The notes below the pieces were generated by a model. The model was not told the origin of the DNA. It saw nothing but the letters and a program-made list of their open reading frames with translations, and ran no database searches. 64,000 bases of DNA from a virus: the IMG/VR virus record IMGVR_UViG_3300028283_000495; one strand, 5' to 3'. Of this stretch, positions 2,943-62,330 are shown piece by piece; position 1 is the stretch's first letter; every line of letters begins with the position of its first letter. The translations under genes and the position numbers were made by a program.

Positions 2943-3240
2943 TACATACGAAGATAAAGCTGGATATAGCGTGACAATTGGAGATATACAACAATGTTGT
3001 CCTAAATGTGGGAAACACGAAATGTTTCATCTCATTTGTAAAGGTAAGGATGATAGAGGATTTAGAAATGGTATGTCCTTTATAAAATGTCAAGAATGTA
3101 ACTGGAGAGGACTTAGTAAGTATTTAGTAGATCCTTATGAATTTAAAGTTAAAAAGAGAACAGAATTAATCGATAGGATGATTTATGAAGGGAAAATGGA
3201 AAAAAATATGGAACGACGACTTACCAGGATTTCACGATAG
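2929..3240 (+). CDS. zinc-ribbon protein with C-terminal tag
   Basis: CPKCG...CQECNWRG; KKRTELIDRMI. Confidence 0.75.
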   Translation: MIITDTYEDKAGYSVTIGDIQQCCPKCGKHEMFHLICKGKDDRGFRNGMSFIKCQECNWRGLSKYLVDPYEFKVKKRTELIDRMIYEGKMEKNMERRLTRISR

Positions 3241-8704: not shown

Positions 8705-8804
8705 AAATTAGCTTTTTATTTATATATTAATTTTGTTCTCTCCTAAATTCTTCTTATTTTTGTGTATTAAACTTTTCACGATTTTACTCATATAATATCG
8801 TATC

Positions 8805-10732: not shown

Positions 10733-11416
10733 TTATTGAAAGTCTTTGACTATTAATGATATGGTGCTTTTTGAAGATTTAAAATATTTAGCTATATCTG
10801 ATTGATTTACACCATTATCATACATGTATCTAATTTTTTCTCTATCCAGTTTAGGCTGGGCGGTCATTAGGTTATTCATTTTAGAATATATTAATTCCTT
10901 ATTATCCTCAAAAAATCTTGTATCTGAATGTAAATATTTATGGCAGTTTTTACACAATACCACACACTTATTTAATTCATTTTCTATAATTTCTTTAACG
11001 TCTTCAATATTATTTAAGTGCATTATAGATGATAATCTGAAATCCTTATCTTTTGGATCAATATGATGAAAGTCAAGAGATGCCAAACACTCATCATATC
11101 CACAATCTTCACATAGTAATTCCCCTTTAAAATTTAAAAGAATTCTTTTTTCTTTTCTTTCTTTCACACCGTAATGTAATTTCATATGGCAATTAAAACA
11201 CAATAAATCACATTTATCTAATTCTATTCTAACTAAATTCCACCTTTTACCAAACATTAAACTTAATTTTTCATCTTTAAGTTTAGATTCTCTGTGGTGG
11301 AAACACAATTTAAATTGTTCATTTTCACCACAATCCATACACTTACCACCCAAATATTCTATAGCTTTTAATTTCTTGATGTAGTAATATATTCTATTTA
11401 GAAATGGTTTGTTCAT
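10733..11416 (-). CDS. double-HNH homing-type endonuclease with C-terminal HTH
   Basis: Two CxxC...FHH...C-x-L/V-LC-x-NCH modules; SQSDIAKYFKSSKSTIS-like helix-turn-helix. Confidence 0.85.
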   Translation of the reverse strand: MNKPFLNRIYYYIKKLKAIEYLGGKCMDCGENEQFKLCFHHRESKLKDEKLSLMFGKRWNLVRIELDKCDLLCFNCHMKLHYGVKERKEKRILLNFKGELLCEDCGYDECLASLDFHHIDPKDKDFRLSSIMHLNNIEDVKEIIENELNKCVVLCKNCHKYLHSDTRFFEDNKELIYSKMNNLMTAQPKLDREKIRYMYDNGVNQSDIAKYFKSSKSTISLIVKDFQ

Positions 11417-11461
11417 AAGTTCGATTTTTAATCATATATATTAATGTGTAAAAACCGAATT

Positions 11462-11499
11462 AAAAAAAAGAGAATCAGAAATCTGATTCTCTTTTTTTT
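11462..11499. terminator. bidirectional intrinsic terminator after the tRNA-like genes
   Basis: AAAAAAAAGAGAATCAG-AAAT-CTGATTCTCTTTTTTT. Confidence 0.85.
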
Positions 11500-11504
11500 C
11501 CTTG

Positions 11505-11586
11505 TAGCCCTAGCCGGATTCGAACCGACGTTGCAAGTACACTTGTGTCCTTACCCCCGAAGGGGTGTCCCCTAGACGATAGGGCC
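11505..11586 (-). tRNA. atypical tRNA-Glu/Asp-like RNA (82 nt): no canonical anticodon loop, hairpin inserted in D-loop
   Basis: GGCCCTA TC GTCT [AGGGGAC ACCCC-TTCG-GGGGT AA] GGAC A CAAG-TGTA-CTTG CAAC GTCGG TTCGAAT CCGGC TAGGGCT A; acceptor, D and T stems pair. Confidence 0.8.
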
Positions 11587-11691
11587 GGTAGGTTTCCCAA
11601 TCTATGTGGTATCCCTAGATTTTAAAGAATATCAGGACTTTCACCTGATATATCCAACCATTTTACTGGTGACTTTATTTGTATTCTTCTG

Positions 11692-11760
11692 TAGCCCGTA
11701 AGAGATTCGAACTCCTGTCACTGGAATAATCCAGTGTCCTTTCCGCTAGACTAACGGGCC
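11692..11760 (-). tRNA. atypical tRNA-Glu/Asp-like RNA (69 nt) with 4-nt anticodon-position loop
   Basis: GGCCCGT TA GTCT AGCGGAAA GGAC A CTGGA-TTAT-TCCAG TGAC AGGAG TTCGAAT CTCTT ACGGGCT A. Confidence 0.85.
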
Positions 11761-11897
11761 GTTATTTGTCCTTAATTTTCTTCTAATTGGTCTATTGTAT
11801 CTATATTAATATCACCCTAATTTATTATTATCTAAAATTCTAATTTATCTATATAATATATTAAGGACAAATAATTCTCATTTGTAATTTGATAACA

Positions 11898-11905
11898 CAA
11901 AAATA
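11898..11905 (-). promoter_or_regulatory. Bacteroidota-type -7 promoter element (TATTTTTG) upstream of the tRNA-like genes
   Basis: TAnnTTTG with an upstream TTTG; 23-nt context nearly identical to 31278-31300. Confidence 0.6.
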
Positions 11906-11946
11906 CGGAAATTCTGGGAAACAAAAAAATTTCTGGTGAAAATTTC

Positions 11947-12597
11947 TTATTTAATTTCGATCTTGAAATTCTGTTTACTCTTATCCTCGATAGGCTTTTT
12001 AGTCAAATATACTGATAAAATTCCATCCTTATATTCACTAGATATTTTATTTAAGTCTATATTATAATGAGTTATATCATATTTCTTATTAAATACATCA
12101 CCTATTTCTATATCTATTCTCTCGTACTTTCTTTCCCCTAATGAAGAAAGACTCATATTATACCAAGGCATCCCTTTTACACAAAGGAAAGTTTTATTTT
12201 CTACTGTCTCAATAGTAATATCTAATTGTTGTTTATTAATACCAGGACAAATAACATCAATCACAATAGTATTACCAACGACTTCGTAAACATTAGTTAA
12301 AGGATAATCAACTATTTTCTTAGGTACAAATGCAGATACTGGTTTCTTAACAACATTGATGATATCGTCGTATAGTTTATAAACATCTGATTCAAAATTG
12401 GCTTTGCCGTGTTGTTCGTATAGTTCGTCCATGAGTTTCTTTGTCTTCTCTTCGTTGAGAGGAAAGTTCTCTTTTAGAAAGTCTTTTAATTTACCGTCAA
12501 TTTTAATATTAAATGTTTTCTTTTCCATATCATTATTATTTTCTTTAAATGGGTACATCTCCTCAAAGAATGCGCCGCCAGGATAACCTACTCCCAT
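11947..12597 (-). CDS. Hsp20/alpha-crystallin family small heat-shock protein (true start may be downstream)
   Basis: VIDVICPGINKQQLDITIE and SSEYKDGILSVYLTK motifs. Confidence 0.8.
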   Translation of the reverse strand: MGVGYPGGAFFEEMYPFKENNNDMEKKTFNIKIDGKLKDFLKENFPLNEEKTKKLMDELYEQHGKANFESDVYKLYDDIINVVKKPVSAFVPKKIVDYPLTNVYEVVGNTIVIDVICPGINKQQLDITIETVENKTFLCVKGMPWYNMSLSSLGERKYERIDIEIGDVFNKKYDITHYNIDLNKISSEYKDGILSVYLTKKPIEDKSKQNFKIEIK

Positions 12598-61193: not shown

Positions 61194-62330
61194 ATGCAGC
61201 GACATCTCTTTAAACTAAGCAAACAGAACAAGATATTACACTACGTTGTTCAAGTTATAGATAATAAAACTAGTTCTCAACTAGTTACAGATAAAGGGCA
61301 ATTTCTAGGAGCCTACCAGTCTGATACAAAAGAATTTGTGATTGGTAAAAATGTTGGTAGAGCCAACGAAACTACACACTTTCAGCAAGCTATATCAGAG
61401 GCTGATTCCAAAGTAAATAAACAAAAAGACGAAGGTTATAAATTATGGGATGGTGATCTTGTTCCAGGACCAAATGTAGCAAAAGAAATTTTAGAATGGC
61501 TTACAGATCAAGGCAAAGGCACTGACGCATCTGGTGATTTAAAACCAATGTTGGCACACAAAGATTTAAAAAGTATCAAATTTCCATGTCTCATTCAAAG
61601 AAAATATGACGGAATTCGTTGTTTCAGTAAAGTGAATGGTGGAACCACAATGAAATCTAGAAACGGAAAAGATTTCAACTATCTTCAACACATTATGAAT
61701 GATTTAGGATTAAATTTCACTAACTGTATTGTTGACGGTGAACTTTATTCTAATACACTCACTTTTCAGGAAATACTTTCAAGTGTGAAGAGGGAACAGG
61801 CTTCTAATAAACTTATTTCTTTACGTATTTATGACGTAATTCCACTTGATAATCTTAAATTAAAACAATCAGAAAGAGTAAATTTACTTAATCTTAAACA
61901 AGATTCTACTTGTCTTCACCCAGTTGAAACTTACACGGTTAACAACATCGAAGAGGTTAAAGTGTATTTTGCTCAATTTATTGAAGAAGGGTACGAAGGT
62001 GCTATTCTTAGGAACCTTAACGGTGAATACGAATTCGGTGGAAGGTCTAGGGATCTTATTAAATATAAGGAATTCGATGATGATGAATTCGAAATCGTTG
62101 ATGTTATTGAAGCAAGTGGTAGGGACGAAGGAACTGCTATTTTTGTAATGTGTAATAAAAACGATCAAATCTTCAACGCTAGACCAAAAGGCACTAGGGA
62201 AATTAGAAGGGAATATCTTTTGAATAAAAAAGAACTGATTGGAAAAATGGGAACTGTACAATATCAAGGTCTAACTGACGACGGTGTGCCTCGCTTCCCT
62301 GTTTTCAAGTGTGTGAGGGATTATGAATAA
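61194..62330 (+). CDS. ATP-dependent DNA ligase with WGR-like N-terminal domain
   Basis: QRKYDGIRC (I), VDGELY (III), YEGAILR (IV), RSRDLIKYK (V), OB fold PRFPVF. Confidence 0.95.
   Translation: MQRHLFKLSKQNKILHYVVQVIDNKTSSQLVTDKGQFLGAYQSDTKEFVIGKNVGRANETTHFQQAISEADSKVNKQKDEGYKLWDGDLVPGPNVAKEILEWLTDQGKGTDASGDLKPMLAHKDLKSIKFPCLIQRKYDGIRCFSKVNGGTTMKSRNGKDFNYLQHIMNDLGLNFTNCIVDGELYSNTLTFQEILSSVKREQASNKLISLRIYDVIPLDNLKLKQSERVNLLNLKQDSTCLHPVETYTVNNIEEVKVYFAQFIEEGYEGAILRNLNGEYEFGGRSRDLIKYKEFDDDEFEIVDVIEASGRDEGTAIFVMCNKNDQIFNARPKGTREIRREYLLNKKELIGKMGTVQYQGLTDDGVPRFPVFKCVRDYE

What the first reader, a model, noticed from the sequence alone, without database searches (positions are those of the whole stretch)
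11505..11760. Two tandem tRNA-Glu-like genes that both lack a usable anticodon loop
Seen: both RNAs have full acceptor stems (G1:U72, A73), a Glu/Asp-type D-stem (GTCT/GGAC) and a perfect TTCGAAT T-arm. The anticodon arms are CTGGA-TTAT-TCCAG (5 bp, 4-nt loop) and CAAG-TGTA-CTTG (4 bp, 4-nt loop), not the 7-nt loop needed for decoding. The two arms differ in sequence yet both close as tetraloops with intact pairing, which fits selection better than random decay. The downstream copy also has an ACCCC-TTCG-GGGGT hairpin (stable C(UUCG)G loop) inside its D-loop. The pair sits between a host-type promoter (11898-11905) and a strong terminator (11462-11499). Known: host anticodon nucleases (PrrC, RloC, VapC, PARIS AriB) cut anticodon loops, and charged tRNAs also serve non-ribosomal chemistry. 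Inference: these are non-decoding tRNA mimics, e.g. cleavage-proof decoys for tRNA-targeting defences, synthetase/EF-Tu/RelA sponges, or aminoacyl donors.
Basis: partly seen in the sequence, partly recalled or inferred. Interest (0 to 1): 0.88.

Follow-up and report, generated by a model that had tools for sequence, protein, structure and literature searches.

The report
Anticodon-less tRNA-Glu look-alikes in huge phage
A huge freshwater phage that probably infects Bacteroidetes keeps a small cassette of two RNA genes with the full body of a glutamate tRNA but a closed 3-6-base cap where the codon-reading loop should be. They cannot decode, selection clearly preserves them, and their job is unknown.

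Summary

**What is there.** On the minus strand lie a 69-nt RNA (type I, 11760..11692) and an 82-nt RNA (type II, 11586..11505).
- Both have tRNA acceptor, D and T arms and glutamate-tRNA core features.
- Their anticodon arms are 5 bp + UUAU and 4 bp + UGUA.
- Type II also has a UUCG-capped hairpin in its D loop.

**Conservation.** The same cassette occurs in the 735-kb phage LR756501 and in four more diverged phage contigs. Its order is a Bacteroidetes-type promoter, type I, a spacer, type II, then (seen in five of the six) a terminator hairpin.
- In 11 aligned sequences, all 256 stem cells pair.
- 18 of 26 pairs show compensatory changes, including 4 of 5 in the short anticodon stem and 4 of 5 in the D-loop hairpin.
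- The loop is 3-6 nt, never 7, and its sequence is not conserved.

**Context.** The 735-kb relative also has normal tRNA-Glu genes, a GluRS and a protein with a CCA-adding-type (PolyA_pol) domain.

**Verdict.** These are selected, non-decoding tRNA-Glu mimics. Function is unproven. My leading guess, at about 35-40%, is a decoy or competitor for a protein that binds the tRNA-Glu body.

I found no published description. Earlier notes of this scan report the same design in other huge phages.

The parts
11895..11932 (-). Promoter block: TTTG (11925..11922), a 16-nt spacer, then TATTTTTG (11905..11898). This fits the Bacteroidetes -33/-7 promoter type.
   Evidence: Sequence. The block AAATTTTTTTGTTTC-N11-CGTATTTTTGTGT is conserved upstream of the cassette in six phage lineages. 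Similar boxes precede ORFs at window about 31300 (-) and about 8753 (+). That this is the Bacteroidetes promoter consensus is my own knowledge.
11761..11890 (-). AT-rich leader of about 130 nt between the promoter and type I.
   Evidence: It is 97.7% identical to LR756501. Leader length varies from about 20 to about 130 nt among lineages.
11692..11760 (-). Type I anticodon-less tRNA-Glu mimic, 69 nt including A73.
   Evidence: Rfam tRNA 54 bits. Family model R1 86 bits. Identical in LR756501. Cloverleaf with covariation.
11721..11734 (-). Type I 'anticodon' hairpin: CUGGA-UUAU-UCCAG (5 bp, 4-nt loop).
   Evidence: MFE fold. Four of the five pairs show compensatory changes in the family.
11587..11691 (-). 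Spacer of 105 nt with two small hairpins. One is T-arm-like, with a 7-nt loop and a closing stem (about 11689..11624). The other has a GAUA/GAAA internal loop and lies just 5' of type II (about 11617..11589).
   Evidence: fold z = -1.39, not significant on its own. Analogous hairpins appear in LR756501, L032, L048 and L077. This is the most diverged part of the cassette, at 89.5% identity to LR756501.
11505..11586 (-). Type II anticodon-less tRNA-Glu mimic, 82 nt, with an extra hairpin in the D loop.
   Evidence: R1 78 bits. One substitution against LR756501. Orthologues in L032, L047, L048 and L077.
11553..11566 (-). D-loop insertion hairpin: ACCCC-UUCG-GGGGU.
   Evidence: Orthologues have different stems capped by GAAA, GAAA or GCAA, and L077 has a 9-nt loop. 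Four of five pairs are compensatory.
11534..11545 (-). Type II 'anticodon' hairpin: CAAG-UGUA-CUUG (4 bp, 4-nt loop).
   Evidence: Orthologues have 5 bp plus AACC, AACU or AACC, and L077 has a 6-nt loop.
11462..11499 (-). Intrinsic terminator: a 17-pair hairpin flanked by an A run and a U run.
   Evidence: A different hairpin followed by a T run sits in the same place in LR756501, L032, L047 and L048.

Best explanation
**What it is (shown).** The two genes are functional RNAs derived from tRNA-Glu. Their anticodon loop has been replaced by a closed 3-6-nt cap, so they cannot pair with a codon.

**How it is made.** They sit together between a Bacteroidetes-type promoter and an intrinsic terminator, which suggests one transcript (shown: the motifs and their conservation; inferred: transcription). 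They are probably cut out by RNase P and RNase Z and given CCA. That step is inferred from the intact 7-bp acceptor stems, A73, and the mostly unencoded CCA. The relative phage also encodes a protein with a CCA-adding-type (PolyA_pol) domain.

**What is kept.** The full L-shape core is retained: U8, A14, the G18-G19 pair of the D loop, and the TTCGAAT T loop. The features I recall as typical of tRNA-Glu are retained too: U11-A24, U13-G22, A46 and a 4-nt variable loop.

**How it acts (not shown).** My leading reading, at about 35-40%, is that they are ribosome-inert mimics with no anticodon loop to cleave. They would occupy a protein that recognises the tRNA-Glu body and acceptor end, acting as a decoy or competitor. 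Candidates are a host tRNA-directed defence enzyme or a glutamyl-tRNA synthetase.

The 0.8 confidence applies to 'selected, non-decoding tRNA-Glu mimics', not to the decoy mechanism.
For: **Family and structure.**
- Six lineages carry the cassette.
- Alignment A2: 11 sequences, 256 of 256 stem cells paired, and 18 of 26 pairs with changes on both sides. No shuffle in 500 reached the observed values, and slid controls paired only 29-56%.
- RNAalifold independently predicts the same cloverleaf.
- Loops are UUAU, UUAC, UCA, GUCC, GGUUC, UGUA, AACC, AACU, AACC, UAAC and GGUUCU. None is 7 nt and they share no sequence.
- G1-U72, G2-C71, A73, the D-stem pairs G10-C25, U11-A24 and U13-G22, A46 and C48 are invariant in A2.

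**Purifying selection.**
- Against LR756501 the two genes are 100% and 98.8% identical. The spacer is 89.5% and the HSP20 3' end 87%.
- A third strain has 0 changes in the parts of both genes its contigs cover, but 7 substitutions and one 2-nt deletion in the spacer.

**Glu ancestry.** Normal tRNA-Glu(UUC) genes are the top non-family hits of model R1 in every array tested. One of them shares its first 19 nt with type II.

**Extra to decoding.** LR756501 has 66 tRNA hits, including Glu CTC and two Glu TTC genes. Only this cassette scores 76-86 bits with R1.

**Phage enzymes.** LR756501 and one other carrier encode a full-length GluRS and a PolyA_pol (CCA-adding-type) domain protein.
Against: - No direct evidence of transcription, processing, CCA addition or a binding partner. 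The only RNA-library signal is one contig that could be DNA carry-over or read-through.
- The known anticodon nucleases that I recall recognise the anticodon loop itself, which these RNAs lack. A body-only decoy would suit only enzymes that read the tRNA body.
- No conserved protein gene next to the cassette suggests a partner.
- Conservation of the Glu-type core could partly reflect recent common descent: neighbouring proteins are about 75% identical between lineages.
- The family is small and seen so far in only one phage subgroup.
Confidence: 0.8

Rival explanations
1. Dedicated non-ribosomal glutamate carriers. The phage (or host) GluRS charges the mimics. Having no anticodon, they stay off the ribosome and hand Glu to another enzyme, as I recall the non-proteinogenic tRNA-Gly species of Staphylococcus feeding FemXAB.
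For: - The acceptor end is invariant (G1-U72, G2-C71, A73), and so are the D-helix features that I recall as GluRS identity elements (U11-A24, U13-G22, A46, 4-nt variable loop).
- The two larger carrier genomes each encode a full-length GluRS and a PolyA_pol (CCA-adding-type) domain protein.
Against: - GluRS depends strongly on the anticodon (own knowledge), and the phage GluRS keeps its anticodon-binding domain.
- No GluTR domain was found in LR756501 or two other carrier contigs. The LanB-type dehydratase search was also blank, but its controls were blank too, so it proves nothing.
- GluRS lies 80-100 kb from the cassette.
Confidence: 0.2
2. Processing or stability modules. The tRNA shapes serve only as RNase P / RNase Z cut-here signals or protective scaffolds for the cassette transcript, and the functional product is the spacer RNA.
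For: - The cassette has structured spacer hairpins between the tRNA-like units.
- tRNA punctuation is a known processing principle (own knowledge).
Against: - The spacers are the least conserved part: 89.5% identity against 99-100% for the genes, and most strain differences fall in them.
- Spacer length and content differ greatly between lineages.
- A pure cleavage signal would not need a conserved 5-bp anticodon stem, a D-loop hairpin or Glu-type core nucleotides.
Confidence: 0.12
3. Cofactors of an RNA-repair or RNA-surveillance machine, like the tRNA-like domain of YrlA Y RNAs or the predicted b7a-tRNA that accompanies RtcB.
For: - LR756501 and one other carrier encode RtcB, and LR756501 also encodes Band-7 proteins.
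- tRNA mimics have been proposed as repair cofactors (bioRxiv 10.1101/312249, citing Burroughs and Aravind 2016).
Against: - None of those genes lies near the cassette; the closest is 20 kb away and the others more than 100 kb.
- No TROVE/Ro gene was found.
- Unlike most YrlA RNAs, these RNAs have free acceptor ends and no Ro-binding stem.
Confidence: 0.06
4. Decaying tRNA-Glu pseudogenes, or an assembly artefact that deleted 3 nt of each loop.
For: ARAGORN gives an undetermined or forced call for each.
Against: - Stem pairing is 100%, with compensatory changes in every helix across lineages.
- The same short loops occur in independent assemblies and runs.
- The genes are more conserved than their flanks.
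Confidence: 0.01

Closest known systems
Canonical phage tRNA-Glu(UUC), for example LR756501 170051-170124 and the gene at L039 9155-9230
   Same: Same acceptor, D and T architecture: D stem GUCU/GGAC with U13-G22, a 4-nt variable loop and a TTCGAAT T loop. G1-U72/A73 occurs in some of them. These are the best non-family hits of model R1.
   Different: The 7-nt anticodon loop with a UUC anticodon is replaced by a 3-6-nt cap with no conserved sequence. Type II has an extra D-loop hairpin. The cassette lies outside the phage's tRNA arrays and has its own promoter and terminator.
YrlA bacterial/phage Y RNAs and the predicted b7a-tRNA (bioRxiv 10.1101/312249; Burroughs and Aravind 2016 as cited there)
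   Same: Non-decoding RNAs that keep the tRNA L-shape and tertiary contacts and lack an anticodon loop.
   Different: In most YrlA RNAs the acceptor end is closed, and the anticodon-stem side continues into a Ro60-binding stem next to an rsr gene. Here the acceptor end is free, there is no Ro stem, no TROVE gene, and no adjacent RtcB or Band-7 gene.
Phage tRNAs that counter tRNA-targeting defences (T5 tRNA-Lys against PARIS, PMC11464382; tRNA-Tyr against retron effectors, PMC11555353; anticodon-loop variants, PMC10264068)
   Same: Phage-encoded tRNA-shaped RNAs whose anticodon region differs from the host's, in the setting of a tRNA-centred arms race.
   Different: By the abstracts read here and as I recall them, those are working tRNAs that replace cleaved host tRNAs. 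These RNAs cannot decode at all.
Non-proteinogenic tRNA-Gly of Staphylococcus; mascRNA and murine gammaherpesvirus vtRNAs; phage T4 stable RNAs 1 and 2 (all from own knowledge)
   Same: tRNA-derived RNAs diverted from translation. Some are processed by RNase P and RNase Z and receive CCA without being used on the ribosome.
   Different: As I recall them, none combines a specific tRNA-Glu core with a sealed anticodon hairpin, a paired type I / type II arrangement and a D-loop hairpin.
Anticodon-less tRNA look-alikes noted earlier by this scan in other huge phages (AI notes)
   Same: Same design principle: an intact tRNA body with a sealed 3-5-nt cap, selection shown by covariation, and in one 428-kb phage a nearby GluRS.
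   Different: Different genomes and copy numbers (4-8 copies with a fixed UUCG cap there). Here there is a 2-3-gene cassette, variable caps and a type II form with a D-loop hairpin. No sequence similarity to this window was found in the index.

Membership tests
Decoding elongator tRNA (tRNA-Glu) | Four-arm cloverleaf with conserved tertiary nucleotides (U8, A14, G18-G19, T54-Psi55-C56, A58) | tested here: met
   Rfam RF00005 scores type I at 54 bits. Type II falls below threshold because of its D-loop insertion.
Decoding elongator tRNA (tRNA-Glu) | 7-nt anticodon loop with U33 and a Glu anticodon (YUC) | tested here: not met
   Loops are 3-6 nt in all 13 family members seen and share no sequence. 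In type I, no register gives a 7-nt loop.
Decoding elongator tRNA (tRNA-Glu) | Glu-type core: U11-A24, U13-G22, A46, 4-nt variable loop lacking residue 47 | tested here: met
   Invariant in alignment A2. Normal tRNA-Glu genes are the nearest decoders. That these are GluRS identity elements is my own knowledge.
tRNA pseudogene | Relaxed constraint: mismatches in stems, and no conservation beyond the flanks | tested here: not met
   100% pairing and 18 of 26 compensatory pairs. The genes are 99-100% identical where the spacer is 89.5%. No changes in a third strain over the parts its contigs cover.
YrlA / Y RNA | Ro60-binding stem, closed acceptor end (in most members), and a neighbouring or co-occurring rsr (TROVE) gene | tested here: not met
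   Free acceptor ends with A73. No TROVE domain in LR756501 or two other carrier contigs. No Rfam Y RNA hit.
b7a-tRNA (predicted) | Encoded next to a Band-7 protein and RtcB | tested here: not met
   RtcB and Band-7 genes exist in LR756501 but lie more than 100 kb from the cassette. In the L077 contig RtcB is about 20 kb away.
tmRNA tRNA-like domain | Alanine-type acceptor (G3-U70), no D stem, and an mRNA-like tag domain | tested here: not met
   ARAGORN finds no tmRNA in the window. The 3-70 pair is C-G, and a D stem is present.
Anti-defence phage tRNA (replacement decoder) | Can be charged and decode in place of the cleaved host tRNA | tested here: not met
   There is no anticodon loop. Charging cannot be tested with these tools.
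Processed tRNA-like ncRNA (mascRNA / vtRNA type) | RNase P and RNase Z processing and CCA addition without aminoacylation | not testable with these tools
   Indirect evidence only. CCA is encoded in just two type II orthologues. A PolyA_pol (CCA-adding-type) domain gene is present in two of the three carrier records searched. The RNA-library contig is not decisive.

The most novel reading that the evidence does not exclude
The mimics are one half of a phage system centred on glutamate tRNA. Either the phage's own GluRS loads them as ribosome-insulated Glu carriers for a non-ribosomal glutamylation. Or, lacking an anticodon loop to cleave, they neutralise a host defence enzyme or kinase/toxin that works through the tRNA-Glu body or the GluRS-tRNA-Glu complex. 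Type I and type II (with its D-loop 'handle') would address two different partners.
Probability: 0.2. Interest if true: 0.9.

Novelty: new variant of a known kind. Interest (0 to 1): 0.7.

Why it matters
Phage tRNA genes are usually explained by codon supply or by replacing host tRNAs that defences destroy. RNAs that keep a specific tRNA body but are built so that they cannot decode point to a third use of tRNA shape by viruses: occupying or feeding proteins that read tRNA identity away from the ribosome.

The family is compact and strongly covarying, and the 735-kb relative also encodes its own GluRS and a CCA-adding-type domain protein, so the idea is directly testable through charging, binding and defence assays.

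Two practical points follow:
- Standard annotators mislabel these genes as 'tRNA-Pro' or 'tRNA-???'.
- tRNA counts for huge phages therefore include non-decoders.

Tried and rejected
**Readings rejected.**
- ARAGORN's tRNA-Pro(GGG) call for type II. ARAGORN makes no tRNA call for the type II orthologues in L032 and L047, and their D-loop hairpins are capped by GAAA or GCAA tetraloops.
- Assembly error and pseudogene decay.

**Searches with no useful result.**
- No other Rfam family fits the cassette.
- Exact anticodon-arm patterns found nothing in IMG/VR.
- The type II pattern found nothing in 185,579 species genomes, so no bacterial or prophage copy is known.
- LR756501 and two other carrier contigs have no GluTR, TROVE or peptidyl-tRNA hydrolase domain. 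The LanB search was also blank, but its controls were blank too, so it is uninformative.
- RtcB, Band-7, GluRS and the PolyA_pol-domain gene are present but not adjacent.
- The L077 fragment has no GluRS, but it is only 23% complete.
- Literature searches on tRNA-like or anticodon-less phage RNAs found no description of this family.
- No earlier scan note shares sequence with this window.

**Expression.** One metatranscriptome contig covers 11698-12050 and runs on upstream through the three ORFs. It ends 6 nt short of the type I 3' end. This could be RNA, DNA carry-over or an assembly break at a repeat, so I do not count it as evidence.

**Spacer.** Its fold alone is not significant (z = -1.39).

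**Relaxed type I pattern.** Hits in Streptomyces and in other phage tRNA arrays have a Glu body with a 5-bp stem and 5-nt loop. ARAGORN can force them into 7-nt-loop tRNAs, so I do not count them as family members. A BLAST lead to 'tRNA-Cys' of Streptomyces phage BillNye turned out to be a normal tRNA.

Full report
**1. What is in the window**

The window is 26-38% G+C. No whole genome is held for it.

The region 11400-12000 is 94.5% identical to LR756501/LR756503, a 735,411-bp uncultured phage. The paper that reports a 735-kb genome says its genomes above 634 kb belong to the Mahaphage clade and are predicted to replicate in Bacteroidetes (PMC7162821). I infer that LR756501 is that genome.

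- **Type I (11760..11692, 69 nt):** a 7-bp acceptor stem with G1-U72 and A73, D stem GUCU/GGAC, anticodon arm CUGGA-UUAU-UCCAG, a 4-nt variable loop, and a T arm with loop UUCGAAU.
- **Type II (11586..11505, 82 nt):** the same plan, plus the hairpin ACCCC-UUCG-GGGGU inside the D loop and the anticodon arm CAAG-UGUA-CUUG.

Detector results:
- ARAGORN reports 'tRNA-???' for type I and a forced 'tRNA-Pro(ggg)' for type II.
- Rfam's tRNA model finds type I (54 bits) with a deletion in the anticodon loop, and misses type II.

A 17-pair intrinsic terminator follows at 11499..11462.

**2. It is a conserved cassette, not an accident**

LR756501 carries the same locus with a second type I gene. That copy has D stem GUAU/GUAC, a compensatory change, and loop UUAC.

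Degenerate DNA patterns and a search with the conserved upstream ORF found four more diverged carriers:

| Carrier | Size |
|---|---|
| IMGVR_UViG_3300025858_000656 (= Ga0209099_1001669) | 21.5 kb |
| Ga0209777_10004551 | 16 kb |
| IMGVR_UViG_3300042261_000762 | 104 kb |
| IMGVR_UViG_3300010352_001405 | 163 kb |

In all of them the order is the same:
1. A conserved promoter block, AAATTTTTTTGTTTC-N11-CGTATTTTTGTGT. It fits the Bacteroidetes TTTG / TAnnTTTG promoter type (own knowledge). The same type precedes protein genes elsewhere in the window.
2. One or two type I genes.
3. A variable spacer with small hairpins.
4. One type II gene.
5. A hairpin followed by a T run in five of the six; I did not identify one in the stretch of L077 that I read.

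The neighbouring 113-aa ORF is 74-77% identical among four of the lineages, which gives the scale of divergence.

**3. Selection on the structure**

In an 11-sequence alignment (A2) I imposed the cloverleaf with the short anticodon hairpin and the D-loop hairpin.
- All 256 cells form standard pairs.
- 18 of 26 pairs change on both sides.
- No shuffle in 500 reaches any observed measure.
- Sliding the partners drops pairing to 29-56%.
- The anticodon stem has compensatory changes in 4 of 5 pairs, including the loop-closing pair. The D-loop hairpin also has 4 of 5, and its caps are UUCG, GAAA, GAAA and GCAA.
- RNAalifold predicts the same fold without being told. Most single-sequence folds recover the short hairpin.

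The sixth lineage fits the model with no non-canonical pair and has a 6-nt loop.

Across all members the loop is 3-6 nt, never 7, with no shared sequence. What is selected is a closed stem, not a loop motif.

These positions are invariant in A2: G1-U72, G2-C71, A73, U8, the D-stem pairs G10-C25, U11-A24 and U13-G22, A14, C27-G43, A46, C48 and the T loop.

**4. Not an artefact, not decay**

- Against LR756501 the genes are 100% and 98.8% identical. The spacer is 89.5%, the HSP20 3' end 87%, and sequence beyond the terminator is unrelated.
- Contigs from other runs agree. One DNA run matches 11492-11714 exactly.
- A run from a different study differs at 7 spacer positions plus one 2-nt deletion. 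It has no change in the parts of either gene that its contigs cover, and it carries the tandem type I duplication seen in LR756501.

**5. Where the genes come from, and what else the phage has**

- LR756501 has 66 Rfam tRNA hits, mostly in large arrays. They include Glu(CUC), two Glu(UUC) genes and two CUA suppressors.
- A covariance model of the family (R1) scores the cassette genes at 76-86 bits.
- The best normal tRNA in LR756501 scores 48 bits and is a tRNA-Glu(UUC).
- In other phage tRNA arrays the top normal hits are also tRNA-Glu(UUC), at 49-65 bits. One of them shares its first 19 nt, and G1-U72/A73, with type II.
- So the ancestry is tRNA-Glu, not Asp or Arg, and the mimics are extra to a complete decoding set.
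- LR756501 and the 104-kb contig each encode a full-length bacterial-type GluRS with its anticodon-binding domain and a large protein with a PolyA_pol (CCA-adding-type) domain.
- LR756501 and the 163-kb contig encode RtcB, and LR756501 also encodes Band-7 proteins. None of these is near the cassette.
- GluTR, TROVE and peptidyl-tRNA hydrolase domains were not found. The LanB search was blank, but so were its controls.

**6. How it probably works**

Shown: the RNAs cannot decode, selection maintains them, they keep the tRNA-Glu core and acceptor end, and they have their own host-type promoter motifs and terminator.

Inferred: transcription as one precursor, maturation by RNase P and RNase Z, and CCA addition. 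CCA is encoded only in two type II orthologues.

Mode of action is open. My odds:

| Reading | Odds | Main argument |
|---|---|---|
| Decoy or competitor for a protein that reads the tRNA-Glu body and acceptor end | 35-40% | Explains keeping the core while removing the one part that ribosomes and anticodon-directed enzymes use |
| Non-ribosomal Glu carrier | about 20% | Fits the invariant acceptor end and the phage GluRS, but GluRS normally needs the anticodon (own knowledge) |
| Mere processing signals | about 12% | The spacers are the least conserved part |
| RNA-repair cofactor of the YrlA / b7a-tRNA type | about 6% | No gene linkage |

**7. Comparison and novelty**

Rfam has no family for type II or for the cassette as a whole. 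Eight literature searches returned no description of this family.

The nearest published concepts are YrlA / b7a-tRNA mimics (bioRxiv 10.1101/312249) and phage tRNAs that evade tRNA-targeting defences (PMC10264068, PMC11464382, PMC11555353). The defining features of each are not met.

Earlier AI notes of this scan report the same design in other huge phages, including tRNA-Glu-like RNAs with a UUCG cap near a phage GluRS in a 428-kb phage. I did not check those notes. I used them only as leads:
- Glu versus Arg ancestry: tested, and Glu here.
- Pth, Band-7 and RtcB linkage: tested, and not met here.

I class this as a new variant of a known kind (non-decoding tRNA mimics). Its distinctive features are the paired type I / type II arrangement and the D-loop hairpin.

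Noticed in passing
L001:3309-3358 (LR756501), L032 about 8705-8795, L077 about 3084-3122, window about 11689-11624: The spacers hold a further degenerate tRNA-like piece: a T-arm-like hairpin with a 7-nt loop (UUCGAUU, UUCAAUU, UGCAAGU or UGAAAGU). In LR756501, L032 and the window its 3' side runs into one strand of a closing stem, as in an acceptor/T minihelix.
   Followed up: partly
window about 11617-11589; LR756501 (L001, just 5' of type II); L048 about 195-245: Just 5' of type II there is a small hairpin with a symmetric GAUA/GAAA (or GAAA/GAAA) internal loop. Its outer and inner stems covary between the window and L048. It might be a protein-binding or processing element.
   Followed up: no
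L060:1303-1373, L065:5321-5391, L066:1780-1850, L072:899-969, L073:1611-1681, L062:355-425, L067:3814-3881, L069:5725-5793: Several tRNA arrays hold genes with a tRNA-Glu body and an anticodon arm of 4-5 bp plus a 5-nt loop. They occur in Streptomyces chromosomes, an Actinomycetota MAG and unrelated IMG/VR phages. ARAGORN labels those it calls Cys, Ser, Ala, Gly, His or Gln by forcing a 7-nt loop (it makes no call at the L067 and L069 sites). 'Shrunken-loop' tRNA-Glu bodies may be much more widespread.
   Followed up: partly
L078:2057-2129 (IMGVR_UViG_3300011919_000057): A tRNA-Glu-type body whose anticodon arm is expanded to about 37 nt, which is the opposite modification. It sits among other oddly extended tRNA-like sequences.
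   Followed up: no
L017:1423-1576 and L021:2808-2898 (LR756501): The 735-kb relative has two CUA (amber-suppressor-type) tRNAs, which ARAGORN labels 'Pyl'. It also has a 91-nt tRNA that ARAGORN reads with a 4-base anticodon (uuac). These hint at stop-codon recoding or quadruplet decoding in this phage group.
   Followed up: no
window 10733-11416 (-) and 11947-12597 (-): An HNH/HTH endonuclease-like ORF lies directly downstream of the cassette terminator, where similarity to LR756501 ends. It is probably a mobile insertion. An Hsp20-like ORF sits between the cassette and the conserved 113-aa ORF in the window and LR756501, but L032, L047, L048 and L077 do not have it there.
   Followed up: partly
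LR756501 155778-156200 and IMGVR_UViG_3300042261_000762 61367-61792: The PolyA_pol (CCA-adding-type) domain sits inside very large ORFs of 1105-1237 aa, far longer than I recall for bacterial CCA-adding enzymes.
   Followed up: no
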